The notes under the pieces: generated by a model
The model's input: the letters and a program-made list of their open reading frames with translations, nothing else
The model's database searches: none
What the model was told of the DNA's origin: nothing
Position numbers and translations under genes: made by a program
Shown: positions 1,536 through 20,102 of the stretch, piece by piece
Numbering within the stretch: position 1 is the first letter of the stretch
Layout of the letters: each line of letters begins with the position of its first letter
Assembly: GCA_019873645.1 (NCBI GenBank)
Contig: JAIOAX010000050.1
Span: 1-24,000 of the forward strand
Length of the DNA stretch: 24,000 nt
Source of the DNA: Chloroflexota bacterium
GTDB taxonomy: Bacteria > Chloroflexota > Anaerolineae > B4-G1 > SLSP01
Reading direction: 5' to 3'

Positions 1536-3560
1536 ATGAAAACACGCCTGGCTCTTCTTCTGAGTATCCTGGCCTCATTGCTCTGTGTGTTAGGGCTGCC
1601 CCTGTGGAGTGTGCGCTATGCCCTGTTTATGCCGGAGTTTTACCGCCGCTGGTTGCGGGAAAGTGACTTTGTCGCACAGGTGAGCCTGGCCCTGGCAAAC
1701 GACCTGCCGCGACGCATCCCCGAAGCGACGTGGCCGGCGTGGCTCCCCCGCGCACCGGAACAGTTGCGGTCGCTTTTCGACTACGTGCTGGTACCCTCAG
1801 AAGTCGAAGCGTTAGGGGAACGGGTGGGACCATCATGGGCGGCATGGCTGCTTGGCGAAGCGCCGTCGCCGGAACGGGTGACGCCGGAGATGGCGCGCCA
1901 GCTTTCCGGCGACCGAGGCGAGAATATCCGCGCCTTTCTGTGGCGCGCTTTGCCGTCTTGTGAGGCAGCCACGCCGCCGGCCTGCCTTCCCGCCGATCCC
2001 GGTGCGCATGCCGCCGTGGGACGGCAACAGCAGGCGTGGTGGAGCGGCTTTACCGGTGACTTCATCGCCATGGGTGAAGCTGCCGAAGCGCGGCTCATTG
2101 CGGCATGGCAGGCGCCGGGCTGGCTACGGTGGGTATGGTATGCGCCGCTTCTGGCGTTCATCCTGGCGCTCATCGCCACAGCGTTGATGCCCGACCGCAG
2201 ACGCTGGGTGTGTATGAGCGTGCCGTTGCTCACGACCGGCCTGTTTGTTGGCAGCATCGGTGGACTGGCGTGGCTGGATCGAATCGCGCCGCCGGATATT
2301 CGTGCGCTGACCGGCATCCCGTTTTCAATGGGGACGCTGACGGTGTTTGCCTCGCTGTGGCATGCGCTGATGCGCATCCTGGGGCCGTTGTGGCTGATGG
2401 GCGGCGCGGTGTCGCTGGCTCTGGGGTTGCTCTGGTTGACACTGACTTTTGAGCATCGGAGCAGCAAAGGAATCGTCGTGGCGCTGGCGTTGTTGACGCT
2501 GTGGGGCGGGGTACAGTTTTATCCAGGTTCGCTGTTGACGCCTGTAGCGACGCTTCCTCCACCGACGACTGAACCTACGCCGACGCCGTGGCCCACCTTC
2601 ACCAGCACGCCGACGTTGACGCCAACGCCGCATTACTGGCCTGTGTCGCCCGGCACACCCGCGCCGACGCCTTCCGGCCCGTTCACGAGCGAGGCGCAAC
2701 TTCTCGGTTGTATTCATGGGAAAGGCAAGCCGCTTCTCGCATTGCGTCTGGCGGACGATGAAATTCAGGCTTTGAGCGCCAATGTCACACTGCGCTATCG
2801 TTACCCGGCGCTTAATCCCTTGCCACAGGTGACGCATCCGCTAACCTTCACGGCGTTCGCGTTGACAGATGACGGAACGGAGATCGCCGTGGCGCAGGAA
2901 CGCAACCTGTACCTTTACACCTTCCCGTCGTGGTCGCGGACGTTGCGCAGCCGTATTGCGACCTTTGCGCCGATTCGGACGCTGGCCTATGCCGTCGGAC
3001 GCACACAACTGGTGCTGGGATTGGAGAACGGCTATTTGTGGGTCATCAACCCGGCAAACGGGGCCATCGTGTGGCTTCTCAAGGCCGGCGATAGCGCGGT
3101 GACGGCGCTGGCCGCGCATCCAACGCAGCCACTTGTGTTGGCCGGCATGGCTGATGGGCGCGTGTTGCTGTGGGACATGGCAAACGGTGCACAAGTCGCC
3201 GTCCTGGAAGGGCATACGGCCGCCGTGCAGTTCCTGGTCTTTGCGCCATCTGGCGACCGCGCGCTCTCGGTAGATGCGGTCGGGCAGTGGATGGTATGGG
3301 ATGTCGCGCAGCGGAACGTGGTGCGGCAGCGCACGCCGACGTTGACCGGCGCACTGTCCACGTTGACGTGGACGGAAGGTTTCATCCTCGGCGGTACAAC
3401 GGCCGGCGAATTGCTTTTTGCGGACGAAGACCTGACCTTCCAGCGCCTGCCGGTTGCCCAAAACGCCATCACCGCCGTTCACCTGGACGCCGCCGGCGCG
3501 GCCCTCATCGCTGCCGCCGACGGCACAATCTGCATCTGGGGAGTCCTCCATGTTCCCTGA
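1536..3560 (+). CDS. Polytopic membrane protein with Pro/Thr-rich linker and C-terminal WD40-type beta-propeller
   Basis: 674-aa ORF. N-terminal hydrophobic segment LALLLSILASLLCVLGL plus several TM-like stretches. Linker PPPTTEPTPTPWPTFTSTPTLTPTP. WD-like repeats such as GMADGRVLLWDMANG...LEGHTAAVQFLVFAPSGDRALS...WMVWDV. Confidence 0.75.
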   Translation: MKTRLALLLSILASLLCVLGLPLWSVRYALFMPEFYRRWLRESDFVAQVSLALANDLPRRIPEATWPAWLPRAPEQLRSLFDYVLVPSEVEALGERVGPSWAAWLLGEAPSPERVTPEMARQLSGDRGENIRAFLWRALPSCEAATPPACLPADPGAHAAVGRQQQAWWSGFTGDFIAMGEAAEARLIAAWQAPGWLRWVWYAPLLAFILALIATALMPDRRRWVCMSVPLLTTGLFVGSIGGLAWLDRIAPPDIRALTGIPFSMGTLTVFASLWHALMRILGPLWLMGGAVSLALGLLWLTLTFEHRSSKGIVVALALLTLWGGVQFYPGSLLTPVATLPPPTTEPTPTPWPTFTSTPTLTPTPHYWPVSPGTPAPTPSGPFTSEAQLLGCIHGKGKPLLALRLADDEIQALSANVTLRYRYPALNPLPQVTHPLTFTAFALTDDGTEIAVAQERNLYLYTFPSWSRTLRSRIATFAPIRTLAYAVGRTQLVLGLENGYLWVINPANGAIVWLLKAGDSAVTALAAHPTQPLVLAGMADGRVLLWDMANGAQVAVLEGHTAAVQFLVFAPSGDRALSVDAVGQWMVWDVAQRNVVRQRTPTLTGALSTLTWTEGFILGGTTAGELLFADEDLTFQRLPVAQNAITAVHLDAAGAALIAAADGTICIWGVLHVP

Positions 3561-3634
3561 TCCCTACTTCCCAATCCCCAATCCCTACTCCCCAATCCCT
3601 AATCCCTGATTACTTGTTACTCATTACTTTTCAC
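3561..3634 (+). repeat. Degenerate heptamer array (7x TCCCNAN-like then ~3.5x TTACTNN), G-poor on + strand
   Basis: Read directly: tccctac ttcccaa tccccaa tccctac tccccaa tccctaa tccctga ttacttg ttactca ttacttt tcac. Only 2 G in 74 nt. It starts at the base after the stop codon of the upstream gene and ends 9 nt before the sbcD ATG. Confidence 0.9.
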
Positions 3635-3643
3635 TGAGGCTCT

Positions 3644-4885
3644 ATGACCAATCCTATCCGTATCCTGCACTTCGCCGATTTGCACATCGGCATGGAAAAC
3701 TATGGACGCCTGGACCCGGAGTCGGGCCTGAACCAGCGCGTGAAGGATTTTCTCGCGCGCCTGGATATGGTTGTTGAGTACGCCATCGCGCATGAGGCCG
3801 ACATGGTGCTCTTTGCGGGCGATGCCTTCCGCACACGCAGCCCGAATCCCACCCACCAGCGCGAGTTCGCGCAACGCATCCGGCGTTTGTCACAGGCGGC
3901 GATCCCAACCGTCCTGCTTGTGGGCAACCACGATGTTCCGGTGATGGAACAGCGCGCCTCGAGCGTCGAAATCTTTGCCACCCTTGCCGTTCCCTACGTC
4001 ACCGTTGCGGCGCGCCCGGAGCTGCTGCGCATAGACACGCGCCGCGGGCCGCTCCAGCTTGCGGTGATTCCTTACCCTGTCCGCCAGCGTCTGCTCAGCC
4101 GCGAACAGTTCCGGCAAATGAGCCAGGAAGCGTTGGATCGCGCCGTGAGTGAGGTTGTGGTGCGCCTGATTCAGCAGTTTGCGGAGCGACTTGATCCCGC
4201 TATCCCGGCAGTGCTGGCCGGACACTTCTCGGTTGAAAACGCGCATTGGGGATCGGAGCGCAATATTATGGTGGGCCGGGATGTGGCAATCCCGCTCTCG
4301 GCGCTGACCGATGCCGTCTGGGATTACGTCGCGCTCGGACACATCCATCAGCACCAAAATCTTAATCCGACGAACGATCCACCGGTGGTGTATGCCGGCA
4401 GCCTGGAGCGGGTGGATTTCGGCGAGGAGAAACAACCCAAGGGCTTCTGTTGGGTCGAAGTGCAGCCTGAAATGACCGTGTGGCGCTACGTGGAAACGCC
4501 GGCGCGCCCTTTTGTGACCATTCGGGTAGACGTGCGGCGGGACTCGCAACCCTTGCGGACCATCGAGCGGGCGCTGGCTTCGCATACGCTCTCTGAGGCA
4601 GTTGTGCGGCTAGTCGTGCAGATGCTGCCAGAGCAGGAGTCGTACCTGCGAGAGGCCGATCTAACGCCTTTGCTGACGGAGGCGTTTTTTGCGCAGCTCA
4701 ACCGCGAGGTGGATCGCGCCGCCCGTGATCGCCTCAGCGGCCTGGAGCCAGACGCACTGACTCCTCTGCACCTGTTGGAACGTTATCTGCAATCCAAAGG
4801 CAAGCTGGACGAAGAATTGCCGCCTTACCTGGCAGAGGCGCAAGCCATCTTTGCGGATGAGGACGCTGTTACCACGGATGATTGA
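3644..4885 (+). CDS. sbcD: SbcD/Mre11-family DNA repair exonuclease (calcineurin-like phosphoesterase)
   Basis: 413-aa ORF. Motifs ILHFADLHIG, LFAGDAFRTRSPNP, LLVGNHDVP, AGHFSV, LGHIHQHQ in the canonical SbcD/Mre11 order. GAGG 4 nt upstream of the ATG. Confidence 0.85.
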   Translation: MTNPIRILHFADLHIGMENYGRLDPESGLNQRVKDFLARLDMVVEYAIAHEADMVLFAGDAFRTRSPNPTHQREFAQRIRRLSQAAIPTVLLVGNHDVPVMEQRASSVEIFATLAVPYVTVAARPELLRIDTRRGPLQLAVIPYPVRQRLLSREQFRQMSQEALDRAVSEVVVRLIQQFAERLDPAIPAVLAGHFSVENAHWGSERNIMVGRDVAIPLSALTDAVWDYVALGHIHQHQNLNPTNDPPVVYAGSLERVDFGEEKQPKGFCWVEVQPEMTVWRYVETPARPFVTIRVDVRRDSQPLRTIERALASHTLSEAVVRLVVQMLPEQESYLREADLTPLLTEAFFAQLNREVDRAARDRLSGLEPDALTPLHLLERYLQSKGKLDEELPPYLAEAQAIFADEDAVTTDD

Positions 4886-4888
4886 GGC

Positions 4889-4916
4889 TTGACAAATCTC
4901 CGAAATCCTCTATAGT
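4889..4916 (+). promoter_or_regulatory. Sigma70-type promoter TTGACA-16 nt-TATAGT for the transglycosylase gene
   Basis: TTGACA at 4889-4894 and TATAGT at 4911-4916. It lies inside the 5' part of the tracked ORF 4882..6534, which argues for the downstream GTG start. Confidence 0.55.
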
Positions 4917-4968
4917 CAGAAATAAGGTTCATTCTAAAGGGGTCAACAATCAATCAACGGGAGAGCGT

Positions 4969-6534
4969 GTGCTAACGAAACCCTTCCATAGAGCGATGTC
5001 GGCGCTCGTGGTGCTGGGGCTGCTGACAGGTGTGGTCGCCGGACATGTAGGGGCTTCGCACTTCCCAGATTCCTCCACGCAGTCCTCTGGAACGTCCACC
5101 CTGTCGCCTTATTGGAGCCGCAAAATCCTGCGCTGGGAAAGCCTCATTGTGCAAGAGGCCAACCGGCGCGGCCTGGATCCTGACTTGATCGCCTCTCTGG
5201 TGTGGATGGAGTCGCGCGGCGATGCAACCGCCATTGGGCCAGTTGGCTCAGTGGGATTGATGCAGGTCATGCCGAAGGAGGAAGGGTTTTCCTGGCGGCC
5301 TTCCAAACAGGCGCTCCTTGATCCCAGCCTCAACCTCTTTTGGGGCACGCGCACCCTGTCCATTATCATCCAACAGGGCAATGGCGACATCTTCAACTCG
5401 CTCGCGGCTTACAACGCCGGCTGGGAGCAAATTGATTACCGCCGTCCGCGTTACTTTGCCACCACCATCTTGCGTGATTATGTGAGTGCCGTTGCCATGC
5501 GCTGTGGGATCAGCGGACGTTGGGTGGCCTACTTCGCCGTCAAAAGTTATCAAATTCGCGGGCCGATTTGGATCGCCGATTCCGCCCGTCAGGATGTTTA
5601 CTTCTTCGGCCAGGCCAACATAATGCCCGAAGGGACGCCTCTGATCCCTGATGTCGCACCGGCTACGGTTGTGGCGCGTTTTGAGTCGGAAGATACGGGC
5701 GACCGCCACGAAGTGGGCCTCTGGCTCTACGATACCACGCGCCAGGCATGGGATAGTTGTGCGGCTAAGACGGCCACCGTCACGCCGACATTCACCGTGA
5801 CGGCGACACCGGCGCGCACTTCTGCGTCGACACCCACGCCGTCGTCTTTACCTTCTGCAACGCTGATTGCAGCGCCGGTTATGCCATCGCCGACCTCTAC
5901 ACCGACTGTTGCACCGCTTTTTACCGCGATGCCGGGCGCGGGTGAAACCGGTGTGGATGCAGTTGTGCTCGATAACGGTGCCGATTTGCGCCCGGGCGCC
6001 ACGCGCTGGTGGGACCCTACGACGACTTTAGCCCCGGGCACTGCCTTGCGTTTGCTCGGTTATGACCCCGCTATACCGGAGTGGGTGTACGTCGGCACGC
6101 TTGACCGGACCGTGGAGGGGTGGACGCAGATCGTCAATCTTAAGTTGTTGCGCCCGTTGCAGGGCCTGCCGCAGATGACGCCTATCCCTACGCTGACGCC
6201 GACAACCACCGCTACGCCGACGCCGACGGCCACGCCGACCGTCGCCTGTACCGGCGAATCTTTGTGGGCTGAGGCCTGGCCGATCCGCAAACTGAACACC
6301 GTGGATGGCTGGATGGCGGTCATTTACGCCAGGGGGCATGGCGGCAATTGCGTGTATACTTATGCCTGGAACGAAGAGGAGAATGTCGTGGGTGGGCCAA
6401 CGTTAGAGGGCTATCTCTTTGAGGTTCACTCCTCGGATCGCGCCGGCAACATTGTCGGGACGGTTCTGGTGATGTCGGGAAACGAGATCGTGCGCGTAGG
6501 CGTGTATATTAAGCCGCCGGATAGTGGCGAGTAA
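4969..6534 (+). CDS. Secreted or membrane-anchored lytic transglycosylase (SLT domain) with PT-rich linkers and C-terminal domains of unknown function
   Basis: SLT motifs LVWMESRGD...GSVGLMQVMP...AAYNAGW. Start moved to GTG 4969, preceded by GGGAGAG and followed by the signal/TM segment MSALVVLGLLTGVVAG. Linkers TATVTPTFTVTATPARTSASTPTPSS and TPIPTLTPTTTATPTPTATPT. Confidence 0.8.
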   Translation: MLTKPFHRAMSALVVLGLLTGVVAGHVGASHFPDSSTQSSGTSTLSPYWSRKILRWESLIVQEANRRGLDPDLIASLVWMESRGDATAIGPVGSVGLMQVMPKEEGFSWRPSKQALLDPSLNLFWGTRTLSIIIQQGNGDIFNSLAAYNAGWEQIDYRRPRYFATTILRDYVSAVAMRCGISGRWVAYFAVKSYQIRGPIWIADSARQDVYFFGQANIMPEGTPLIPDVAPATVVARFESEDTGDRHEVGLWLYDTTRQAWDSCAAKTATVTPTFTVTATPARTSASTPTPSSLPSATLIAAPVMPSPTSTPTVAPLFTAMPGAGETGVDAVVLDNGADLRPGATRWWDPTTTLAPGTALRLLGYDPAIPEWVYVGTLDRTVEGWTQIVNLKLLRPLQGLPQMTPIPTLTPTTTATPTPTATPTVACTGESLWAEAWPIRKLNTVDGWMAVIYARGHGGNCVYTYAWNEEENVVGGPTLEGYLFEVHSSDRAGNIVGTVLVMSGNEIVRVGVYIKPPDSGE

Positions 6535-13976: not shown

Positions 13977-14112
13977 GTCAGCGGATTGAACGGATTAAGC
14001 AGATTGAGCAGATTCAGGCGTCAATTAAAAGCTAATCCGTTAAAGTCCGTTTAATCCGTTGACATGCATTTTTATGCTGGGTTGAGCGCGTCGCTTATGA
14101 GGTCTTATGACA
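13977..14112 (+). repeat. Left copy of a ~125-135-nt element: 9-mer hairpin plus unique tail
   Basis: Aligns by eye with 19327-19453 at roughly 90% identity with one 9-nt unit indel. Tail TTGACATGCATTTTTATGCTGGGTTGAGCGCGTCGCTTATGA. Confidence 0.85.
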
Positions 14113-14428
14113 CCGGGGGTGGGATCATACCCCGGATATGTTCGTTGATCCAGCGAGGGCGATTGGGGATGTAGACGGTCACGGCGACCAGTTCGGTATT
14201 GTCGGTGTAGTCGCAGACGACGTGGATCGGCAAGGGATATTGGACGACCGGCCCGGCAATCAACAGCCGCCGGCGCTTGGGGTAGTGCTCGACAATCCGC
14301 CCGTTGAAGATCGCATGCAAGATGTCCTTACCCCGCAATCCCTCTTTGTAGGCCTCACGCAGGGCATGGTCGGATACCCGCAGGCGTTTCCACCGCGAAA
14401 GCAGGTCTTCGGTGTCGGTGATGCTCAC
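14105..14428 (-). CDS. DUF4258-like small protein (putative toxin-like, uncharacterised family)
   Basis: Pattern RVSDHALREAYKEGLRGKDILHAIFNGRIVEHYP...PLPIHVVCDY...LVAVTVYIPNRPRW matches my recollection of the DUF4258 profile. Start placed at GTG 14428, with GGAG 8 nt upstream, rather than at the tracked ATG 14524. Confidence 0.55.
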   Translation of the reverse strand: MSITDTEDLLSRWKRLRVSDHALREAYKEGLRGKDILHAIFNGRIVEHYPKRRRLLIAGPVVQYPLPIHVVCDYTDNTELVAVTVYIPNRPRWINEHIRGMIPPPVS

Positions 14429-14615
14429 TTCGGTTGCTCCACGTGTGTTGACGGATTCAAGGTTTACGTAACCCAGTAGAATTTTACCACAGAGTACCCA
14501 GAGAGTACAGAGGTTTTTTCTCATCGTTTGGGTGCATTTCAGGATGAGCGCCAGTTTAGCTCATTGTGCAACATTGGGCGGGAACATTTCGTACAGAAAA
14601 TGCGTCATAGCTGGT

Positions 14616-14671: not shown

Positions 14672-14782
14672 ATGCATACACAAAGTCCAAAGTCAAATCT
14701 GTGGGTGAACATGCTCCTGCTGTTTTTAGGCGCGCTGCCGCTGATTGTCTTGCTGTTGGTGCTGCCGTGGCTGTTAGGCTGA
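14672..14782 (+). CDS. Small hydrophobic single-TM peptide (36 aa), function unknown
   Basis: Below the ORF-track length cutoff. ATG 14672 is preceded by AAGGAGAG with a 5-nt spacer. Translation MHTQSPKSNLWVNMLLLFLGALPLIVLLLVLPWLLG, stop TGA 14780-14782. Host-like CTG-rich codons. Confidence 0.45.
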   Translation: MHTQSPKSNLWVNMLLLFLGALPLIVLLLVLPWLLG

Positions 14783-14976
14783 GAGGAGCGTCAGGCAAAC
14801 GTGGCGGTTGCGTCAAGCAGAAAGCCCGCCGGCCCGTAGATCACGTCACGGCCAGTTTCGCCGGAGATCCGCAATTGCGCATTGCGGTGCGCGGGCCGGT
14901 GCTGCGTGGGTGCAAACCCTCACACTATGCAGCAATAAGGTTGCCAATCTTCGCATGGGTAGAAACCTGCCCCCGT

Positions 14977-15008
14977 CCTGAAGTGTAACCCCCGGTTCAG
15001 GATTATTT
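14977..15008 (+). terminator. Weak candidate terminator hairpin
   Basis: CCTGAA, 13-nt loop, TTCAGG, then ATTATTT. The stem is short and the loop is long. Confidence 0.25.
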
Positions 15009-15035
15009 GACCTCTCAGAATAATTCGCTTATACT
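15007..15035 (+). promoter_or_regulatory. Sigma70-type promoter TTGACC-17 nt-TATACT
   Basis: TTGACC at 15007-15012 and TATACT at 15030-15035, about 70 nt upstream of ATG 15106. Confidence 0.55.
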
Positions 15036-15105
15036 GGTATCGTTGGCAAAGGGTTCCACATAATACATGTTAGCCGCGAGAACGACCAACTGTATGAGGG
15101 GAAAT

Positions 15106-15531
15106 ATGCCACAAGAGAAAGACAAAATCCTCTCACGCGAACTCGGTAAGCTCGGAGGGCCTGGTGCCAGCCTGACATCCAGATTGCTGCCCAACGACGT
15201 TCTTGAACTCACGATGGAGACAAGTAGTCCACCAGAGAAGACATTGGAGACTGTTTTCACCATATTGAGTCAGGAGGGGAAGATAACCGAAACTCACGAA
15301 TCTGATCCTAACACCTCTGCGGTTTGCGCAGTCGTAGGGGCTGGATTCTGGAATCTCAATCCAGCTCTTGTGGAAGTTCGGATAGTGTCAACGATAAACC
15401 ATGTAACAAAGTTGTTGATCATTGGAACAGCCAAAGAAGGGTTGATCAAGCAACGCGCTGGAGAAAAGGCCGCCAGAAGGATCGCGGACTTGCTGGCTCA
15501 GGCACTTAACCAGGCATACACTCGCGGCTAA
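15106..15531 (+). CDS. Hypothetical protein (141 aa), no family recognised
   Basis: Start moved to ATG 15106, preceded by GAGGGG with a 4-nt spacer. AT-richer third codon positions and ATA/AGA/AGG codons, unlike the flanking genes. Confidence 0.6.
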   Translation: MPQEKDKILSRELGKLGGPGASLTSRLLPNDVLELTMETSSPPEKTLETVFTILSQEGKITETHESDPNTSAVCAVVGAGFWNLNPALVEVRIVSTINHVTKLLIIGTAKEGLIKQRAGEKAARRIADLLAQALNQAYTRG

Positions 15532-15745
15532 CATCTCGCTCCAGCCGACTGCTCCCTTGCTCGCTTCGCGACGCAGCTTAGCCGCCCCTCGTTGGGTGGC
15601 TGTGCAACAATTGAAGCCAATCACTATCGGAGCTTGCTGGTGAAATCAATGTAGCTGGCTACATCCACCCGCAATCGGCTGAAATGCGGGCCGTTAACCC
15701 GCCGCTAACCGGGCATCAAGTCTCATTCGCTTTGGAGGTTCAACT

Positions 15746-16300
15746 ATGTGGAAGTCGCAGTTAATAGCCTTGCGCAAATACCTGGCCTCGTTTTTCAAAC
15801 GCGACTGGGAACTGACTGATTACCCGATCGTGCTGAGACACCAGAACCCCGATACCCCTGCACCGCCCATTAAGAACCTCAAGCTGGTTCCGTGGTGTGC
15901 TACAATCGTCAACTGGATCAACATCATCGGGTTTGGCGACACGAAGGAAGAAGCATTGGCCGATCTCAAACGGTGTTTCGATGAGTACAAGCTCGCACAC
16001 GGCTCTGTCCCCCGGCCGGGTACGCGTGTCCCGTTGCAGCTTCCTCCGGTTAATGAGATCCAGAAGCATGTGCCTATGGCGCGTGATTTCTTTGCTCGCA
16101 TCTTGAACATGGACTTTGACGAGTGTTTCATTTCTGATCGGTCCAGCCTGTGGGACTTCCCGTATGAAGACGATGAAGACGAGGCCGCGGTGTTCGCCAA
16201 AATCGAACAGGTTTACGGTGTAGACGTTTCAGACATTCACGATGGTAACCTGGCCCAAATTTTCAGCCGACTTGAGGAGCACGTTCAGGGGCGGTCTTGA
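15746..16300 (+). CDS. Hypothetical protein (184 aa) with HicB/UPF0150-like motif and acidic C-terminal domain
   Basis: GGAGG 7 nt upstream of the ATG. WCATIVNWINIIGFGDTKEEALADLKRCFDEY resembles the GxTxEEAL core of HicB-like antitoxin N-domains. The C-terminal half (DFDECFISDRSSLWDF...VFAKIEQVYGVDVSDI) is unassigned. Confidence 0.65.
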   Translation: MWKSQLIALRKYLASFFKRDWELTDYPIVLRHQNPDTPAPPIKNLKLVPWCATIVNWINIIGFGDTKEEALADLKRCFDEYKLAHGSVPRPGTRVPLQLPPVNEIQKHVPMARDFFARILNMDFDECFISDRSSLWDFPYEDDEDEAAVFAKIEQVYGVDVSDIHDGNLAQIFSRLEEHVQGRS

Positions 16301-16313
16301 GGTCAGATATGCG

Positions 16314-17252
16314 CTACCCAGAGGAAAAGGTGGTAGTAGACATTCCGGCAGTTTGGAAACGCAGCAATGTAATTTCCGGGGGGGCGTTTATGCGTACCTT
16401 GAATCCACCAATCCCCCGGTTGATATAGACAAAGGTAGCGTCATTGTGGACTAATCCGGCCAGATAGCGTGTGCCAAAGCACGTGGAGGCCAGAGACCAA
16501 CCCAACTGTGGGATGTAGATGGTGCCGCCGTGCGTGTGTCCGGCCAATGTCAATGCTATACGCCGGGCAGGTAGCATTTCGGAGAAATCCGGATTATGGA
16601 CGAGCAATACACAGGTTGCGTCTGAGGGTATTGTGTGCAATAACTGTTCCAGGTGCGCGCGCTGAGTTGCCCATATACGCTGAAAAATTGCGAAATTGGT
16701 GCAAAGGCTGCCACCGGGATCCTCAATGCCGATCAGCCACAAGGGAACGCCACCGATTAAACACATGTGTGCGGTATTGCGCAGTACCCTGATGCCTGCG
16801 GCTGTAAGGTTCTGGCGGATCCGATCGGGACCTGCCCAAGCATCGTGATTGCCCAGGACAGCATAACAACCGTAACGCGAACGCAGCGCAGCTAACTCCC
16901 GCGCCGCTACTGCACTAAAGCCAGCATAGAGTGTTACGAAATCGCCGGTCAAGACTATCAGATCTGGCTTCAAGGCATTGACCTGCGACACGATGCGCCG
17001 CAGATAATGAACGCTGGCATCCGCATCCATGTGGATATCGCTCAATTGTACCAACTTCAGACCATGCCAGGCGGCCGGCGCATTTTGCAAAGGAAAGACC
17101 ACCTCGCTCACAGCAGCATTTTTGAACAGCGATTCCTCTATGCAGAACGTTGGCAAGGCTGCCAACATGCTGCCGCGCTGCAAGAGTTTGAGGAATTGGC
17201 GTCGGGATAGACGTGAATAATACAATTGCTCGAAAGCCCCTATGATCCGCAC
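16314..17252 (-). CDS. Tat-signal metallophosphoesterase (calcineurin-like, YaeI/YkuE type)
   Basis: GTG start. Twin-arginine motif SRRQFLK. Motifs LSDIHMD, LTGDFV, LGNHD, LVHNPD, AGHTHGG. Confidence 0.85.
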   Translation of the reverse strand: MRIIGAFEQLYYSRLSRRQFLKLLQRGSMLAALPTFCIEESLFKNAAVSEVVFPLQNAPAAWHGLKLVQLSDIHMDADASVHYLRRIVSQVNALKPDLIVLTGDFVTLYAGFSAVAARELAALRSRYGCYAVLGNHDAWAGPDRIRQNLTAAGIRVLRNTAHMCLIGGVPLWLIGIEDPGGSLCTNFAIFQRIWATQRAHLEQLLHTIPSDATCVLLVHNPDFSEMLPARRIALTLAGHTHGGTIYIPQLGWSLASTCFGTRYLAGLVHNDATFVYINRGIGGFKVRINAPPEITLLRFQTAGMSTTTFSSG

Positions 17253-17304
17253 AGAATGCTCATCTCCAAAGATAAAGCATTTTCTCTAAGTAGCACGAAT
17301 TCGA

Positions 17305-18063
17305 TTAGCGGTTCTGTTTGCCGATCATCGTCTCCAAATGCGCGATAATGTCCATAGCGCGCTGTTCCTGCTCCGCGAGCGTTGAGAGCCAGCGGTCGGC
17401 GGCGGAGTAGACGTCCTCGTCGGGCGCGGGCGTATCAATCGCCTGTCTGAGGTTGCCGGTTAGACCCCCGTCGAGCTGCAAGAGCATCCGCAAGATCGCC
17501 ATCATGCTGTAACCGGCGCGGATGAGCATCCGAATCACCCGCAGCCGGCCGATCTCCGCCGCGCCGTAGTACCGGTAGCCGTTGTCGGGATCGCGCGGTA
17601 CATCGAGCAATCCGTTGCGTTCCCAGTTGCGCAGCATATCCACGCTGACCCCCAGCAATTTCGCCGTTTCACCGATGCGCAAGGGCGCGCGTGTGGCGTC
17701 GGCGGCCATCCCTTGCGCCCAGCGTTCCAGCAGACGCACAGCGCTTTCGGCGTGGGCGCGCTCGGCTTGCACCAGCGCCAGGTGCGCGTAGCCGGCTTCA
17801 AGCGCACCGCCCAGATCGCCGGTGGCGGCCTGTTTGACCAGTTTCACAACCGATTGACGAATCGCTTTGCCGGGCCACGCGCCGCGAAAGGCCAACCGCG
17901 CCAGGATCATACAATCGGCATGAAACTCGGTGAACTGCCGGTAACCGCCAGGGGTACGCAGCACGGGCGGGATGAACCCTAACGTTTCATAGAGCCGCAC
18001 CGTGTTGGGATGGCACCCGGCGGCTTTGGCAATGTCGGACGTGCGTAGATATTTTTCGTTCAT
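17305..18063 (-). CDS. MerR-family transcriptional regulator with two tandem MerR HTH domains
   Basis: The first HTH is YLRTSDIAKAAGCHPNTVRLYETLGFIPPVLRTPGGYRQF. The second is LRIGETAKLLGVSVDMLRNWERNGLLDVPRDPDNGYRYYGAAEIGRL. Confidence 0.85.
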   Translation of the reverse strand: MNEKYLRTSDIAKAAGCHPNTVRLYETLGFIPPVLRTPGGYRQFTEFHADCMILARLAFRGAWPGKAIRQSVVKLVKQAATGDLGGALEAGYAHLALVQAERAHAESAVRLLERWAQGMAADATRAPLRIGETAKLLGVSVDMLRNWERNGLLDVPRDPDNGYRYYGAAEIGRLRVIRMLIRAGYSMMAILRMLLQLDGGLTGNLRQAIDTPAPDEDVYSAADRWLSTLAEQEQRAMDIIAHLETMIGKQNR

Positions 18064-18074
18064 GGCGTAGTTTC

Positions 18075-18107
18075 ATCCTTGCGAAGGTCCTAAACCTCCG
18101 CAAGGAT
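18075..18107 (-). promoter_or_regulatory. Perfect 9-bp inverted repeat between the membrane gene stop and the MerR start
   Basis: ATCCTTGCG, 15 nt, CGCAAGGAT. In mRNA sense the 3' arm contains the only SD-like AAGGA, 12 nt before the MerR ATG. Confidence 0.4.
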
Positions 18108-18111
18108 TCTT

Positions 18112-19233
18112 TCAATAGCCGAAGAGTTTCCGCGCCAGCCAGCCGAGCGCGGTGAACATGCTGCCGATGAACGTGCCGCCGTCGCTGCGCAGGATGACGA
18201 ATGGCTCGCTCGGCACGCCGAAGAACGGGCGCAGCGCCCACGCCATTTGCGTGCCAACGAAGGCGTAGATGACCAGCCACGTCGTCAGGATGCGCCATTG
18301 CCGCACATCCAGCGCATGGCGTTGGACGTGGCGCATCCCCTGGCGCAGGAACGATAATCCCCACCAACTGCTGATCCCCAGGATGATGACGTTGAGCAAA
18401 ATGAGAATCGTGTATTGCTCGCCGATCGTCAACCAGAAGAAGAGCGAAATCGAGGCGAAGGCCAGGCTCAGTGCCCCGGTGATGGTAACGGCGGCCATCA
18501 TCAGCGTTGTCGTCTGTTGGAACGTCAACTGCGAGAGCGCAGCGTTGCCGACGCTGCTAAAAAAGTCGCGGCCTTCCAGCGGCACGCCGAAAAACGGGCG
18601 CAGGGCATAGCTGAGCTGCGCGCCGATGAGGCCGTATAGCAGCAGCCAGCCTATCAACACCAGTGTGCGTACCCCGCCGCGCACGAACAGGTTGAACCAC
18701 CTGCCGAACGTCATCCGCTCCGGTGGCTGGCTCTCGTTGGCGTATAGCATGCCCTGGACGAGGAAGATCAGGCCGAGTACTGCGCACAGACCCAGCGCGC
18801 CGATGTTGAGCAGCACAAGGAGGTTCGCGTCGGTCCCGCTGAGCAGAAAGAGCAGGCTGATGGGCGTGACGCCCAGCGCCAGCACCGCCGTGACGGCCTG
18901 TGAGGTGAGGATCAACGTGGTCATTTGCAGGAAGCGCAACCGCGAACCGAACAGCACGCTAAAGTAGTAAAGCGTCGGCAGGCAGATCAGCCCGCTGATG
19001 AGAAACAGTGCGGGCAGTTTGACGATTCCCCAGAGCGACGGCCCCAGCGTGTGCCCGCTCAGCCCGGCGACCGCGCCAAAGACGCCGAAGCCAAGCGCAA
19101 TGAGGATGAGCAAATGCAGAATCTTATCTGATAAGCCCTGGCTTTGGCCGATTTCGGCGAAATACGCGGTACGCGCGCGGAGGATACGTTCAACAATGGC
19201 AAAGGCGCTCAGGATGTGTTGCAGCGCAGACAT
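18112..19233 (-). CDS. Polytopic membrane protein of unrecognised family with repeated ALRPFFGVP motif
   Basis: About 9-10 hydrophobic segments. GAQLSYALRPFFGVP and GTQMAWALRPFFGVP end the two halves. Start placed at ATG 19233 (GAGGAG with 6-nt spacer) rather than GTG 19239. Confidence 0.75.
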   Translation of the reverse strand: MSALQHILSAFAIVERILRARTAYFAEIGQSQGLSDKILHLLILIALGFGVFGAVAGLSGHTLGPSLWGIVKLPALFLISGLICLPTLYYFSVLFGSRLRFLQMTTLILTSQAVTAVLALGVTPISLLFLLSGTDANLLVLLNIGALGLCAVLGLIFLVQGMLYANESQPPERMTFGRWFNLFVRGGVRTLVLIGWLLLYGLIGAQLSYALRPFFGVPLEGRDFFSSVGNAALSQLTFQQTTTLMMAAVTITGALSLAFASISLFFWLTIGEQYTILILLNVIILGISSWWGLSFLRQGMRHVQRHALDVRQWRILTTWLVIYAFVGTQMAWALRPFFGVPSEPFVILRSDGGTFIGSMFTALGWLARKLFGY

Positions 19234-19326
19234 ACGCACCTCCTCACAAAATAGTCATGGGGGCGTTAGTCGGATAGTCGTCAATCAGACAGTCCGTTGA
19301 AAGCCGTTCAATCTATTCCGAAAATG

Positions 19327-19453
19327 GTCAGCGGATTAAGCAGATTGAGCAGATTTATGCAACAATTGAAAGCTAATCCGTTCAAATCCGTTTAATCCGT
19401 TGACATGCATTTTCATGCTGGGTTGAGCGCGTCGCTCATGATGTCTGTTGACA
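19327..19453 (+). repeat. Right copy of the ~125-135-nt element (9-mer hairpin plus unique tail)
   Basis: Same order and orientation as 13977-14112. Tail TTGACATGCATTTTCATGCTGGGTTGAGCGCGTCGCTCATGA. It overlaps the last ~13 codons and the stop of coaE. Confidence 0.85.
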
Positions 19454-20102
19454 TTTTTATGTTTTTCCACGCGGCGATGACCTGCGCGCGGGTTTCGTCG
19501 AGGCTGCCACTGGTATTGATGACCACATCGGCGCGGGCGAGCTTCTCGGCTTGCGGCGGCTGCGCATGGATGCGGCGCAAGGCGTCCTCACGGGTGAGGC
19601 CACGAGAGCGCATTAGCCGCGCGAGTTGCTCTGCTTCCGGGCATGTGGTCACCCAGATGGCGTCGTAATGATCGGCGATGCCGCTTTCCAGCAGTTTGAT
19701 GGCTTCCACAACGACGACCGGCGCACGGCTTGCAGCGATGCGCGCTTCGATGATAGTGATGATGGGAGGATGCGTCAGTTGTTCCAGCCGCGCCAATGCT
19801 TCCGGGTCGCTAAAGACGATGTCGCCGAGCTTGCGGCGATCAATGGTACCATCGGGGGCGAGGATACCCGTCCCAAACGCGGCAATGACGGCCGGATACG
19901 CGACGCCCTCGGGGGCGATGACCGCATGGGCGACCTGATCTGCGTCAATACGTTCGGCCCCCAATTCTACCAGCATCCGCCCGACGACAGATTTCCCCGT
20001 GGCAATGTTGCCGGTTAGCCCGATGCGATATGGGGGGGTAGGGAGTAGGGAGTAGGGATTGGGGATTGGAGATTGGGAATTGGAAATCAGCGAATCGGCC
20101 AT
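19413..20102 (-). CDS. coaE: Dephospho-CoA kinase
   Basis: P-loop IGLTGNIATGKS and typical CoaE length and order. Preceded by a ~24-aa N-terminal extension encoded by the heptamer array. No other canonical start lies before the P-loop. Confidence 0.85.
   Translation of the reverse strand: MADSLISNSQSPIPNPYSLLPTPPYRIGLTGNIATGKSVVGRMLVELGAERIDADQVAHAVIAPEGVAYPAVIAAFGTGILAPDGTIDRRKLGDIVFSDPEALARLEQLTHPPIITIIEARIAASRAPVVVVEAIKLLESGIADHYDAIWVTTCPEAEQLARLMRSRGLTREDALRRIHAQPPQAEKLARADVVINTSGSLDETRAQVIAAWKNIKMSTDIMSDALNPA
20033..20086. repeat. Inverted copy of the TCCCNAN heptamer array (G-rich on + strand)
   Basis: G7 run, then gtaggga gtaggga gtaggga ttgggga ttggaga ttgggaa ttggaaa. It lies inside the coaE 5' coding region. 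Confidence 0.9.

What the first reader, a model, noticed from the sequence alone, without database searches (positions are those of the whole stretch)
15007..17252. Low-GC3 cassette with its own consensus promoter: two orphan proteins converging on a Tat-exported metallophosphoesterase
From about 15.0 to 17.3 kb the third-codon G/C bias of the surrounding genes collapses. ATA, AGA, AGG, TTG, AAT and GAT codons are frequent, which suggests foreign origin. The cassette opens with TTGACC-17-TATACT. It encodes a 141-aa protein I cannot place. A 214-nt spacer follows, and then a 184-aa protein whose residues ~50-85 (WCATIVNWINIIGFGDTKEEALADLKRCFDEY) resemble the HicB/UPF0150 antitoxin core. That core is fused to an unassigned acidic C-terminal domain (YEDDEDEAAVFAKIEQVYGVDVSDI). 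Its stop is only 13 nt from the stop of the convergent phosphoesterase, leaving no room for terminators, so the transcripts must overlap. A HicB-like domain without a recognisable HicA, next to an unknown 141-aa partner, could be an undescribed toxin-antitoxin or immunity-type pair. That is a hypothesis only.
Basis: partly seen in the sequence, partly recalled or inferred. Interest (0 to 1): 0.6.

Follow-up and report, generated by a model that had tools for sequence, protein, structure and literature searches.

The report
Stray integron cassettes, not a toxin-antitoxin pair
The two "orphan" genes are independent integron gene cassettes of unknown function. They sit behind a host repeat-borne promoter in a strain-specific 2.4-kb insertion, so this is an ordinary kind of mobile-gene cluster, not a new toxin-antitoxin pair.

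Summary
The sequence features are real: both ORFs, the 214-nt spacer, the TTGACC-17-TATACT promoter, the 13-nt stop-to-stop gap and the SRRQFLK phosphoesterase. The GC3 dip is modest (0.53/0.65/0.59 against a genome mean of 0.71, sd 0.07).

The toxin-antitoxin or immunity reading is not supported.
- ORF A and ORF B never co-occur in about 100 homolog loci.
- Neither has a conserved neighbour.
- No HicA lies on this contig.

Window 14907-17304 is an indel relative to the nearest relative, where 155 bp stand in its place.

ORF A is an integron gene cassette.
- It starts at a GTTAGCC core site (15069).
- It ends in an attC (15526-15597) of the same family as the attC sites in this genome's own array (contig C56; IntI on contig C9).
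- Its closest homologs carry attC sites that an independent covariance model detects.

ORF B follows an attC 3' half ending in GTTAACC (15676-15699). It is probably a cassette whose own attC was lost.

The promoter belongs to a host dispersed repeat (40 or more copies) that carries a promoter at a fixed offset.

A has a helix-grip-like fold. The biochemical functions of both remain unknown.

Verdict: a new member of a known kind (a CALIN-like cassette cluster), of moderate-to-low interest.

The parts
14672..14782 (+). Context: 36-codon hydrophobic peptide gene with an AAGGAG SD sequence. It is conserved next to MerR in relatives G001 and G010 and marks the native left flank.
14828..14906 (+). 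A 79-bp remnant of a 261-aa membrane-protein gene that is intact in relatives G001 and G010. About 678 bp of the gene's 5' part are deleted in this genome.
   Evidence: blastn alignment; ORFs; tblastn
14907..17304 (.). Strain-specific 2398-bp segment with no counterpart in the nearest relative G001, where 155 bp lie instead. Homology resumes exactly at the MerR stop (17305). The segment is unique in the genome.
14963..14982 (+). Tail of a roughly 100-nt dispersed host repeat with 40 or more copies. In the other copies the tail is followed by a sigma-70-like promoter at a fixed offset.
15007..15035 (+). Promoter-like TTGACC-17-TATACT. The -35 hexamer lies 24 nt after the repeat tail, which is the modal offset of the repeat family. 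The -10 hexamer ends 34 nt before the cassette boundary.
15069..15075 (+). Core site GTTAGCC (GTTRRRY type), the 5' boundary of cassette A. DNA homology with the closest A loci begins exactly here, and the site is conserved in L057 and L087.
15106..15531 (+). ORF A, 141 aa. It belongs to a conserved hypothetical family with an invariant AKEGLIKQ motif. It has no Pfam, NCBIfam, PADLOC or PHROG match. The predicted fold is helix-grip-like (Bet v 1/SRPBCC, BamC-N).
15526..15597 (+). attC of cassette A. R'' is GGCTAAC (it contains the TAA stop), L'' is CCAGCCGAC, L' is the degenerate GCAGCTTA (15573-80), and R' is GTTGGGT (15591-97). It aligns box for box with attC sites of this genome's own array.
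15598..15699 (+). Either a second, decayed attC-like unit (an ORF-less cassette) or the distal part of a composite attC. An R''-like GTGCAAC lies at 15602-08. A clean 3' half (L' CGGCTGA, 15676-82; R' GTTAACC, 15693-99) forms the 5' boundary of cassette B.
15746..16300 (+). ORF B, 184 aa. The N-domain (about residues 20-95) is basic and HicB/UPF0150-like. The C-domain (about residues 96-184, net charge -12) is an acidic helical domain with D-x-S-S-L-x-D-F and Y-G-V-D-V-S-D motifs. The family has 1210 cluster representatives and no Pfam model.
16301..16313 (.). The 13-nt junction between the stops of B and the convergent phosphoesterase. No attC follows B here, although its closest homolog L056 has an attC-like site after the stop. 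The cassette array is truncated at this point.
16314..17252 (-). Metallophosphoesterase, 312 aa (Pfam Metallophos; YaeI/LpxG-like but below equivalog cut-offs), with an N-terminal SRRQFLK twin-arginine motif. It is an accessory gene: same-genus genomes hold only 29-41% identical paralogs. It shows no cassette features.
17305..18063 (-). Context: a double-HTH MerR-family regulator, 81-87% identical in six same-genus genomes that carry the full-length gene. It marks the native right flank.

Best explanation
Window 14907-17304 is a strain-specific accessory insertion at a hypervariable junction in a Chloroflexota genome that carries an integron.

Its left 1.4 kb is a small, decaying cluster of integron gene cassettes away from the integrase (CALIN-like). 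It consists of:
- cassette A: the G|TTAGCC boundary at 15069, ORF A, and an attC at 15526-15597;
- a roughly 100-bp ORF-less attC-like remnant ending in G|TTAACC at 15693;
- cassette B: ORF B, whose own attC has been lost at the junction with the convergent phosphoesterase gene.

A and B are independent genes of unknown function that were brought side by side by site-specific recombination. They are not a functional pair.

As in an integron array, they are probably transcribed together, each translated from its own Shine-Dalgarno sequence. The promoter is not theirs. It is the outward-facing promoter module of a host dispersed repeat that lies 34 nt upstream of the first cassette.

Transcription probably reads through the attC and B into the 3' end of the phosphoesterase gene.

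Shown:
- the indel;
- the absence of co-occurrence;
- attC-family membership by sequence alignment;
- attC sites after the closest A homologs;
- IntI and an array elsewhere in the genome;
- the repeat-promoter module.

Inferred:
- the route of arrival (IntI-mediated insertion at a secondary site, or translocation of an array fragment);
- co-transcription;
- the cassette status of B.

The biochemical functions of A (helix-grip-like small protein) and B (HicB-like domain plus acidic domain) remain unknown.
For: 1. Indel. Compared with G001 (98% amino-acid identity on the flanking gene), 14907-17304 replaces 155 bp, and a native 261-aa gene is reduced to a 79-bp remnant.

2. This genome has an integron.
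- IntI (TIGR02249) scores 503 bits against a cut-off of 265, at C9:152495-153430.
- Covariance model R1 was built only from 7 attC sites of an IntI-adjacent array in a Thermoflexales MAG. It finds 9 attC sites on the + strand of contig C56, and others on C23 and C17.

3. A's 3' flank aligns box by box (R'', L'', L', R') with those C56 attC sites and with attC sites of L005.
- An exact-box pattern gives 8 hits in the 4.9-Mb genome and 0 in 5 shuffles. One hit is 15526-15699. The others lie in arrays verified by the model.

4. Model R2 was built from 21 attC sites, with neither the window nor the A-linked attC sites among them. It detects an attC directly after the A homolog in L087, L084 and L057 (21-22 bits), further attC sites in L087, L141 and L109, and 4 in the array that holds the 77%-identical homolog (L005).

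5. DNA homology to the nearest A loci covers only the gene plus about 37 bp on each side, and it starts at GTTAGCC.

6. A is rare and patchy.
- It was found in 0 of 40 relatives and 2 of 300 genomes of the phylum.
- It is still 68% identical to a spirochaete protein.
- No neighbour is conserved across 80 loci.

7. B is directly preceded by an attC 3' half plus G|TTAACC. This is homologous to the stretch before the closest B homolog (L056), which also has an attC-like site after its stop.

8. Promoter. Of the 40 repeat copies, 23 have a promoter-like site matching at least 9 of 12 positions, against 1.7% of random windows. In 22 of those 23 the -35 lies 22-25 nt after the tail. The window copy has offset 24.
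Against: - The independent covariance models score the window's own attC poorly. R1 finds no hit. R2 gives 14.0 bits, E 0.13, and ranks it second in the window. Its identification rests on alignment and box patterns, plus two apparent substitutions in L'.
- The second attC-like unit is supported only by its 3' half.
- B's cassette status is indirect. No B-homolog locus gave a significant attC hit (L056: 12.3 bits, E 0.6), and B has no attC in the window.
- Most members of the wider A family (for example in Streptomyces) are unlikely to be cassettes.
- The phosphoesterase shows no cassette features, so the 2.4 kb may not have arrived as a single unit.
- IntI is on another contig, and the assembly is a fragmented MAG with 5.7% contamination.
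Confidence: 0.75

Rival explanations
1. A and B form an undescribed two-gene toxin-antitoxin or immunity module. In this reading the HicB-like B neutralises A, or the reverse.
For: - B has a HicB-like N-domain.
- The two genes are adjacent, on the same strand, and probably co-transcribed.
- Integron arrays and the contexts of B homologs are rich in toxin-antitoxin genes (L004: BrnT/BrnA and ParE-like).
Against: - No locus among 9 B contexts and about 90 A contexts holds both genes.
- In 40 relatives, A was found in 0 and B in 4.
- The two genes are separated by an attC, so they are separate mobile units.
- A has a helix-grip-like fold and no toxin-family match in Pfam or PADLOC.
Confidence: 0.04
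2. B is a solo or 'orphan' HicB-type antitoxin that acts in trans on one of the genome's HicA toxins.
For: - B has a HicB-like fold and a remote profile match.
- The genome has 8 HicA genes.
Against: - B does not reach the Pfam HicB models.
- It lacks the RHH/HTH DNA-binding domain of HicB antitoxins. Its C-domain is strongly acidic.
- No HicA lies on this contig.
- No HicA-like neighbour was seen in the 9 homolog contexts.
Confidence: 0.08
3. The segment is a generic horizontally acquired islet unrelated to integrons. The attC-like boxes are chance or a different kind of repeat.
For: - The covariance models score the window site weakly.
- No IntI lies on the contig.
- This genome is full of dispersed repeats.
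Against: - The exact-box pattern has 0 hits in shuffled genomes. It otherwise hits only arrays verified by the model.
- The site aligns along its whole length with attC sites of the genome's own array.
- attC sites are detected after three close A homologs by a model that did not include them.
- Homology starts at a GTTRRRY core site.
Confidence: 0.1

Closest known systems
CALIN/SALIN elements: clusters of attC sites, or single attC sites, lacking an integron integrase (Cury et al. 2016, PMC4889954; Loot et al., bioRxiv 10.1101/2022.09.11.507474)
   Same: - Promoterless cassettes on one strand, each ORF followed by an attC and bounded by G|TTRRRY.
- No IntI nearby, although IntI is present elsewhere in the genome. 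Cury et al. report this for about half of CALINs.
- The cassettes encode proteins of unknown function.
- The cluster lies next to a resident promoter, as Loot et al. found for expressed cassettes inserted into genomes.
   Different: - The attC sites are decayed. A's L' carries two substitutions, the second unit is only half recognisable, and B's attC is gone.
- The promoter comes from a dispersed host repeat.
- I could not run IntegronFinder's own model, so the formal criterion (two or more attC calls) is not met with a curated tool.
HicB antitoxins of HicAB type II toxin-antitoxin systems, and UPF0150 proteins such as TTHA0281 (PDB 2dsy)
   Same: - The N-domain of B has the same beta-beta-beta-alpha core.
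- It has the G-x-G-x-T-x-E-E-A helix start and the [LI]-P-x-P tail.
   Different: - It has no HicA partner and no RHH/HTH DNA-binding domain.
- It has an extra N-terminal helix and an acidic helical C-domain that also occurs alone in phage contigs.
- It falls below all Pfam thresholds.
Bet v 1 / SRPBCC (START-like) helix-grip proteins and the BamC N-terminal domain (PDB 2laf)
   Same: The predicted fold of A is an antiparallel sheet packed against a long C-terminal helix. Foldseek E is about 6e-6 and prob is 1.0.
   Different: - The TM-score is only 0.4-0.5 and rmsd is high.
- The order of secondary-structure elements differs (alpha-alpha-beta-alpha-beta4-alpha).
- There is no sequence or profile match.
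- The invariant AKEGLIKQ loop has no counterpart that I know of.
YaeI-type and LpxG-type calcineurin-like phosphoesterases
   Same: The protein has a Metallophos domain, an N-terminal twin-arginine-type signal, and a length of about 300 aa.
   Different: It scores 117 and 113 bits against cut-offs of 188 and 350, so it is not an equivalog of either. Its substrate is unknown.

Membership tests
Integron gene cassette (ORF A) | An attC (imperfect palindrome R''-L''...L'-R') directly 3' of the ORF on the coding strand | tested here: met
   - 15526-15597 aligns box for box with attC sites of the genome's own array.
- The exact-box pattern has 8 genomic hits against 0 in shuffles.
- Caveat: model R2 gives only 14 bits, E 0.13, and L' carries 2 substitutions.
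Integron gene cassette (ORF A) | A 5' boundary at a G|TTRRRY core site | tested here: met
   GTTAGCC lies at 15069-15075. Homology with L057, L005 and L087 starts there.
Integron gene cassette (ORF A) | Homologs found as cassettes, with attC sites or in arrays | tested here: met
   Model R2 finds an attC right after the A homolog in L087, L084 and L057. L005 is an array with 4 attC sites.
Integron gene cassette (ORF A) | A cognate integron integrase in the genome | tested here: met
   TIGR02249 scores 503 bits (cut-off 265) on contig C9. The array is on C56.
Integron gene cassette (ORF A) | IntI-dependent excision and integration | not testable with these tools
   This needs a recombination assay.
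Integron gene cassette (ORF B) | Its own attC 3' of the ORF | tested here: not met
   Only 13 nt separate B from the next gene, with no boxes. The homolog L056 has an attC-like site by eye, but R2 gives only 12.3 bits, E 0.6.
Integron gene cassette (ORF B) | A 5' boundary at the R' of a preceding attC | tested here: met
   CGGCTGA-N10-GTTAACC at 15676-15699 matches 18 of 20 positions of a C56 attC 3' half. It is homologous to the stretch upstream of L056.
CALIN (Cury et al. 2016) | At least two attC sites clustered, with no IntI nearby | tested here: inconclusive
   There is one degenerate attC plus one half or second unit. No IntI hit lies on contig C50. IntegronFinder itself was not available.
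HicB antitoxin (HicAB type II TA) | A HicB/UPF0150-like N-terminal fold | tested here: met
   - Foldseek: 2dsy, E 8e-3, prob 0.99, plus the HicB entries 6u0i, 6g26 and 6g1c.
- The top BFVD hit is a 'HicB family' protein.
- hhalign gives prob 79%, P 1.6e-5.
HicB antitoxin (HicAB type II TA) | A match to the Pfam HicB_lk_antitox or HicB models at threshold | tested here: not met
   None of the 21 family members hit, even at E up to 10. A genome scan with PF15919 finds other loci but not this one.
HicB antitoxin (HicAB type II TA) | An adjacent HicA toxin gene | tested here: not met
   The genome has 8 HicA loci, none on C50. None was seen in the homolog contexts.
HicB antitoxin (HicAB type II TA) | A C-terminal RHH/HTH DNA-binding domain | tested here: not met
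   The C-domain is acidic (net -12, pI 4.3) and helical, and has no HTH/RHH match at threshold.
Two-gene TA or immunity pair (A+B) | Conserved co-occurrence or adjacency of the two genes | tested here: not met
   There is no co-occurrence in about 100 loci, in 40 relatives, or in 300 genomes of the phylum.
SRPBCC / Bet v 1-like (ORF A) | A helix-grip fold with a ligand cavity | tested here: inconclusive
   Foldseek prob is 1.0 but TM is 0.4-0.5 and rmsd is 5-10 Å. Model pLDDT is 79. There is no Pfam match.
Acyl/peptidyl carrier protein fold (B C-domain) | Profile similarity to PP-binding and a conserved phosphopantetheine Ser | tested here: not met
   hhalign gives prob 4.5%. In that alignment the position of the carrier Ser is variable and acidic in the B family. 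Foldseek hits to ACPs have E of 2.5-4.6.
Tat-exported metallophosphoesterase | A Metallophos domain plus an S/T-R-R-x-F-L-K signal | tested here: met
   PF00149, E 7e-12. SRRQFLK lies at residues 15-21, followed by a hydrophobic stretch. Export itself was not tested.

The most novel reading that the evidence does not exclude
ORF B represents a large, undescribed two-domain family: 1210 clusters at 50% identity and no Pfam model. A basic HicB-like domain is fused to an acidic helical domain that phages also encode as a stand-alone small protein of about 100 aa.

The family is carried on integron cassettes and in conflict islands (next to bDLD1-CHAT, TA clusters, and Ro60/vWA). It may take part in phage-host conflict, for example as a defence sensor or decoy whose acidic domain phages copy as a counter-measure.

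Separately, the roughly 100-nt dispersed repeat could be a mobile 'portable promoter' element that activates captured cassettes.
Probability: 0.12. Interest if true: 0.6.

Novelty: new member of a known kind. Interest (0 to 1): 0.33.

Why it matters
- It removes a false lead: there is no new toxin-antitoxin pair here. It also explains the odd composition, the structured spacer and the tight convergent junction by one known mechanism, integron cassette capture and decay.
- It documents a cassette cluster outside the main array in a Chloroflexota genome, a phylum in which integrons have received little study.
- The cluster lies directly behind a resident promoter. This is the configuration that Loot et al. 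showed experimentally allows genome-inserted cassettes to be expressed.
- It flags two sizeable uncharacterised protein families (the AKEGLIKQ family and the HicB-like-plus-acidic-domain family) and a promoter-bearing dispersed repeat as objects for follow-up.

Tried and rejected
- Pfam, NCBIfam, PADLOC and PHROGs scans of A and B, and of all members of both alignments, gave nothing.
- PDB sequence searches with profiles gave nothing.
- Rfam on 13.8-17.5 kb at E up to 1 gave nothing.
- Folding of the spacer as RNA gave z = -1.15, which is not remarkable.
- Fusions in longer B-family proteins showed no informative domains.
- The ACP-like reading of B's C-domain was rejected (hhalign prob 4.5%).
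I rejected it as specific, because the repeat is a dispersed family with 161 hits. The right-hand genes are also syntenic in relatives.
- The 160 bp upstream of cassette A are not attI-like. They show no similarity to the IntI-proximal regions of three genomes.
- The phosphoesterase is not a reversed cassette. No attC boxes or model hits lie at either end.
- MerR-phosphoesterase adjacency was not found in other genera.
- The genome-contig scan with the B alignment failed for lack of a conserved stretch.
- A is absent from viral contigs.
- Model R1 alone missed the window attC.
Full report
**1. Observation**

- ORF A is 15106-15531 (+), 141 aa. The longer ATG at 15067 is not used by homologs, which all start at the MPQEKD Met.
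- ORF B is 15746-16300 (+), 184 aa.
- The spacer between them is 214 nt.
- B's stop is 13 nt from the stop of a convergent 312-aa gene, 16314-17252 (-). That gene has a Pfam Metallophos domain (E 7e-12). It resembles YaeI and LpxG without reaching their cut-offs. It carries SRRQFLK at residues 15-21.
- TTGACC-17-TATACT lies at 15007-15035.

The composition claim is only partly right.
- GC3 is 0.528 for A, 0.649 for B and 0.588 for the phosphoesterase.
- The other 16 window genes have GC3 of 0.67-0.82.
- The genome mean is 0.712 (sd 0.069) over 2022 long ORFs.
- A is therefore at about the 3rd percentile, the phosphoesterase at about the 6th, and B at only the 13th.

**2. The segment is an indel at a variable junction**

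The genome (G000) is 4.9 Mb in 73 contigs with 58.6% GC. It shares its phylum with a 'Chloroflexaceae bacterium' MAG, so it belongs to Chloroflexota. I infer this: the L084 and L087 sequences are identical in the alignment, so the two loci come from the same MAG.

I compared the window with same-genus genomes.
- The left flank (oxidoreductase and DUF4258 gene) and the right flank (MerR onward) lie on different contigs in relatives.
- In the nearest relative, G001, a conserved 36-codon peptide gene (window 14672-14782) is followed by an intact 261-aa membrane-protein gene. That gene is convergent with MerR.
- In the window, only 79 bp of the 261-aa gene survive (14828-14906).
- Window 14907-17304 has no counterpart and replaces 155 bp of G001.
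- Homology resumes exactly at the MerR stop.

The 2398 bp are unique in the genome. The phosphoesterase has only 29-41% identical paralogs in same-genus genomes. Its best matches (40-50%) are in other genera. The accessory origin is therefore confirmed, and the window state is the derived one.

**3. A and B are not a pair**

Both proteins belong to conserved hypothetical families that have no Pfam, NCBIfam, PADLOC or PHROG match.
- A has 77 word-indexed relatives. In the collection of 185,579 species genomes, 172 stretches encode an A relative carrying the AKEGLIKQ motif. They span Chloroflexota, Planctomycetota, Actinomycetota, Bacillota, Acidobacteriota, Desulfobacterota and others.
- B's family has 1210 representatives at 50% identity.

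I examined 9 independent-to-related contexts of B and about 90 contexts of A.
- No locus holds both genes.
- Among 80 A loci, no flanking gene family recurs in more than 4 loci.
- B's neighbours are heterogeneous: a bDLD1-CHAT protein, a BrnT/BrnA and ParE-like island, Ro60/vWA, a radical-SAM gene, and a methyltransferase.
- In 40 relatives, A was found in none and B in 4.
- In 300 genomes of the phylum, A was found in 2.
- The genome's 8 HicA genes all lie on other contigs.

**4. What the genes are: integron cassettes**

The clue was that DNA homology between the window and the closest A loci covers only the gene plus about 37 bp on each side. Identity is 91% (L057), 80% (L005) and 75% (a spirochaete). 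The homology begins at GTTAGCC (15069) and runs into GGCTAAC, which overlaps the stop codon. These are the core site (GTTRRRY) and inverse core site (RYYYAAC) of integron attC sites.

Tests:

(a) The genome encodes an integron integrase. TIGR02249 scores 503 bits against a cut-off of 265, at C9:152495-153430, 1 kb from the contig end.

(b) I built covariance model R1 from 7 repeats flanking the cassettes next to IntI in a Thermoflexales MAG.
- R1 finds 9 attC sites on the + strand of G000 contig C56, which is in effect one cassette array.
- It finds a few more on C23 and C17.
- It finds 3 in L005, the locus holding the 77%-identical A homolog.

(c) The window's 15526-15597 aligns along its length with C56 and L005 attC sites. 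The boxes are:
- R'' GGCTAAC;
- an 8-nt spacer;
- L'' CCAGCCGAC;
- a CTCGCTTCGC-type loop;
- L' GCAGCTTA, against the consensus GCGGCTGA;
- a spacer;
- R' GTTGGGT.

(d) An exact-box pattern gives 8 hits in the genome and none in 5 shuffles. The pattern is xAAC, 6-10 nt, CAGCCGAC, 5-150 nt, CGGCT[GC]A, 7-14 nt, GTT. One hit is 15526-15699. The rest are in the arrays verified by the model.

(e) Model R2 was built from 21 attC sites, with neither the window nor the A-linked attC sites among them.
- It detects an attC immediately after the A homolog in L087, L084 and L057 (21-22 bits).
- It detects further attC sites in L087, L141 and L109, and a fourth in L005.

Weak point: R1 misses the window site. 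R2 gives it only 14.0 bits, E 0.13. This is consistent with two substitutions in L', that is a decaying site, but it is not independent proof.

**5. The rest of the spacer and ORF B**

After R' (15591-97) come an R''-like GTGCAAC (15602-08) and, at 15676-15699, a clean attC 3' half (CGGCTGA, 10 nt, GTTAACC). That half matches 18 of 20 positions of a C56 attC. This is either a decayed ORF-less cassette or the far arm of a composite attC.

B starts 47 nt after that G|TT.
- The same arrangement, homologous in sequence, precedes the closest B homolog (L056, G|TCAGCC).
- L056 also has an attC-like GGCTGAC...GTTGGGC of about 60 nt after its stop. R2 scores that site only 12.3 bits.
- In the window B has no attC. 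The array is cut 13 nt after its stop, where the phosphoesterase gene begins.

I therefore rate B's cassette status as probable, not shown. The phosphoesterase has no cassette features.

**6. The promoter is the host's**

Window 14963-14982 is the tail of a roughly 100-nt dispersed repeat. The repeat consists of a GC-rich hairpin plus the tail AAACCTGCCCCCGTCCTGAA and has 40 or more copies.
- 23 of the 40 copies have a sigma-70-like site matching at least 9 of 12 positions within 90 nt downstream, against 1.7% of random windows.
- In 22 of those 23, the -35 lies 22-25 nt after the tail.
- The window's TTGACC is at offset 24.

The 'cassette's own promoter' is thus a resident promoter module, whose -10 hexamer ends 34 nt before the first cassette boundary. 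This fits the finding that cassettes inserted outside integrons are expressed when they land near a resident promoter (Loot et al., bioRxiv 10.1101/2022.09.11.507474). It also fits the description of CALIN elements in genomes that encode IntI elsewhere (Cury et al. 2016, PMC4889954).

No terminator-like site lies between the promoter and the phosphoesterase's 3' end. The only + strand hit is inside ORF B. Co-transcription of A and B, and convergent overlap with the phosphoesterase transcript, are therefore plausible but inferred.

**7. The proteins**

ORF A (AlphaFold2, pLDDT 79, pTM 0.73):
- The model has two N-terminal helices, a five-stranded antiparallel sheet with one inserted helix, and a long C-terminal helix.
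- Foldseek finds Bet v 1/PR-10, CoxG/SRPBCC and BamC-N (E about 6e-6) but at TM 0.4-0.5.
- The invariant residues cluster in G-x-A-K-E-G-L-I-K-Q before the last helix.

ORF B (pLDDT 86):
- It has a basic N-domain (pI about 9-10) and an acidic C-domain (net -12).
- The N-domain's best PDB match is the UPF0150/HicB-like TTHA0281, followed by several HicB antitoxins.
- The best viral match is a 'HicB family' protein.
- hhalign against 19 HicB_lk domains taken from this genome and its relatives gives prob 79%, P 1.6e-5. The alignment covers the strands, the G-x-T-x-EEA helix and the LPxP tail.
- The C-domain has invariant D-x-S-S-L-x-D-F and Y-G-V-D-V-S-D motifs. It occurs as a stand-alone ORF of about 95-115 aa in 5 IMG/VR viral contigs, among small genes between structural genes or next to an HNH endonuclease.
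- It matches no Pfam or PHROG family.
- A weak carrier-protein resemblance did not survive a profile test.

**8. Verdict**

The finding is a real accessory segment, but its interpretation changes. It is a small, decaying cluster of integron cassettes away from the integrase, placed behind a host repeat-borne promoter and abutting an unrelated accessory phosphoesterase. A and B are independent cassettes of unknown function.

This is a new member of a known kind. The residual interest lies in the two uncharacterised families, especially B's phage-shared acidic domain, and in the promoter-carrying repeat.

Noticed in passing
window 14963-15035; about 40 other sites in G000 (e.g. C2:132939, C3:132296, C5:67067): A roughly 100-nt dispersed repeat (GC-rich hairpin plus the tail AAACCTGCCCCCGTCCTGAA) carries a sigma-70-like promoter at a fixed 22-25-nt offset. 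23 of 40 copies have one, against 1.7% of random windows. It looks like a portable terminator-promoter module.
   Followed up: partly
G000 C9:152495-153430 and all of contig C56 (L202): The genome has an integron integrase 1 kb from a contig end, and a 20-kb contig with 9 attC sites on one strand. This is probably the main cassette array, split by the assembly. Smaller attC groups lie on C23 and C17.
   Followed up: partly
window 13991-14112 and 19332-19453: These 122-nt direct repeats are 90% identical. They belong to a dispersed REP/MITE-like family built of 9-nt units, with 161 blastn hits in the genome. They do not bracket a specific mobile element.
   Followed up: yes
window 14672-14782: A 36-codon hydrophobic peptide gene with a strong SD sequence is conserved (84% DNA identity) in relatives G001 and G010, next to the variable region.
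   Followed up: partly
window 14105-14524 (-): A DUF4258 (toxin-like) gene is conserved in G001. I saw no evident partner gene on its strand.
   Followed up: no
window 18064-19454: The 375-aa polytopic membrane-protein gene is absent in the nearest relative G001, where MerR abuts coaE. It is present in G002 and G010. This is a second indel in the same neighbourhood.
   Followed up: partly
L014 and L016 (relatives G009 and G003), 2058-3506: In these relatives, B-family genes lie 20 nt upstream of a protein with a bacterial death-like domain (bDLD1) and a CHAT protease domain. This is a conflict-system context.
   Followed up: no
L060 (IMG/VR contig of 258 kb), 3064-5733: The stand-alone version of B's acidic domain sits between an HNH endonuclease and a ribose-phosphate pyrophosphokinase / Nampt-like gene in a jumbo-phage-sized contig.
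   Followed up: no
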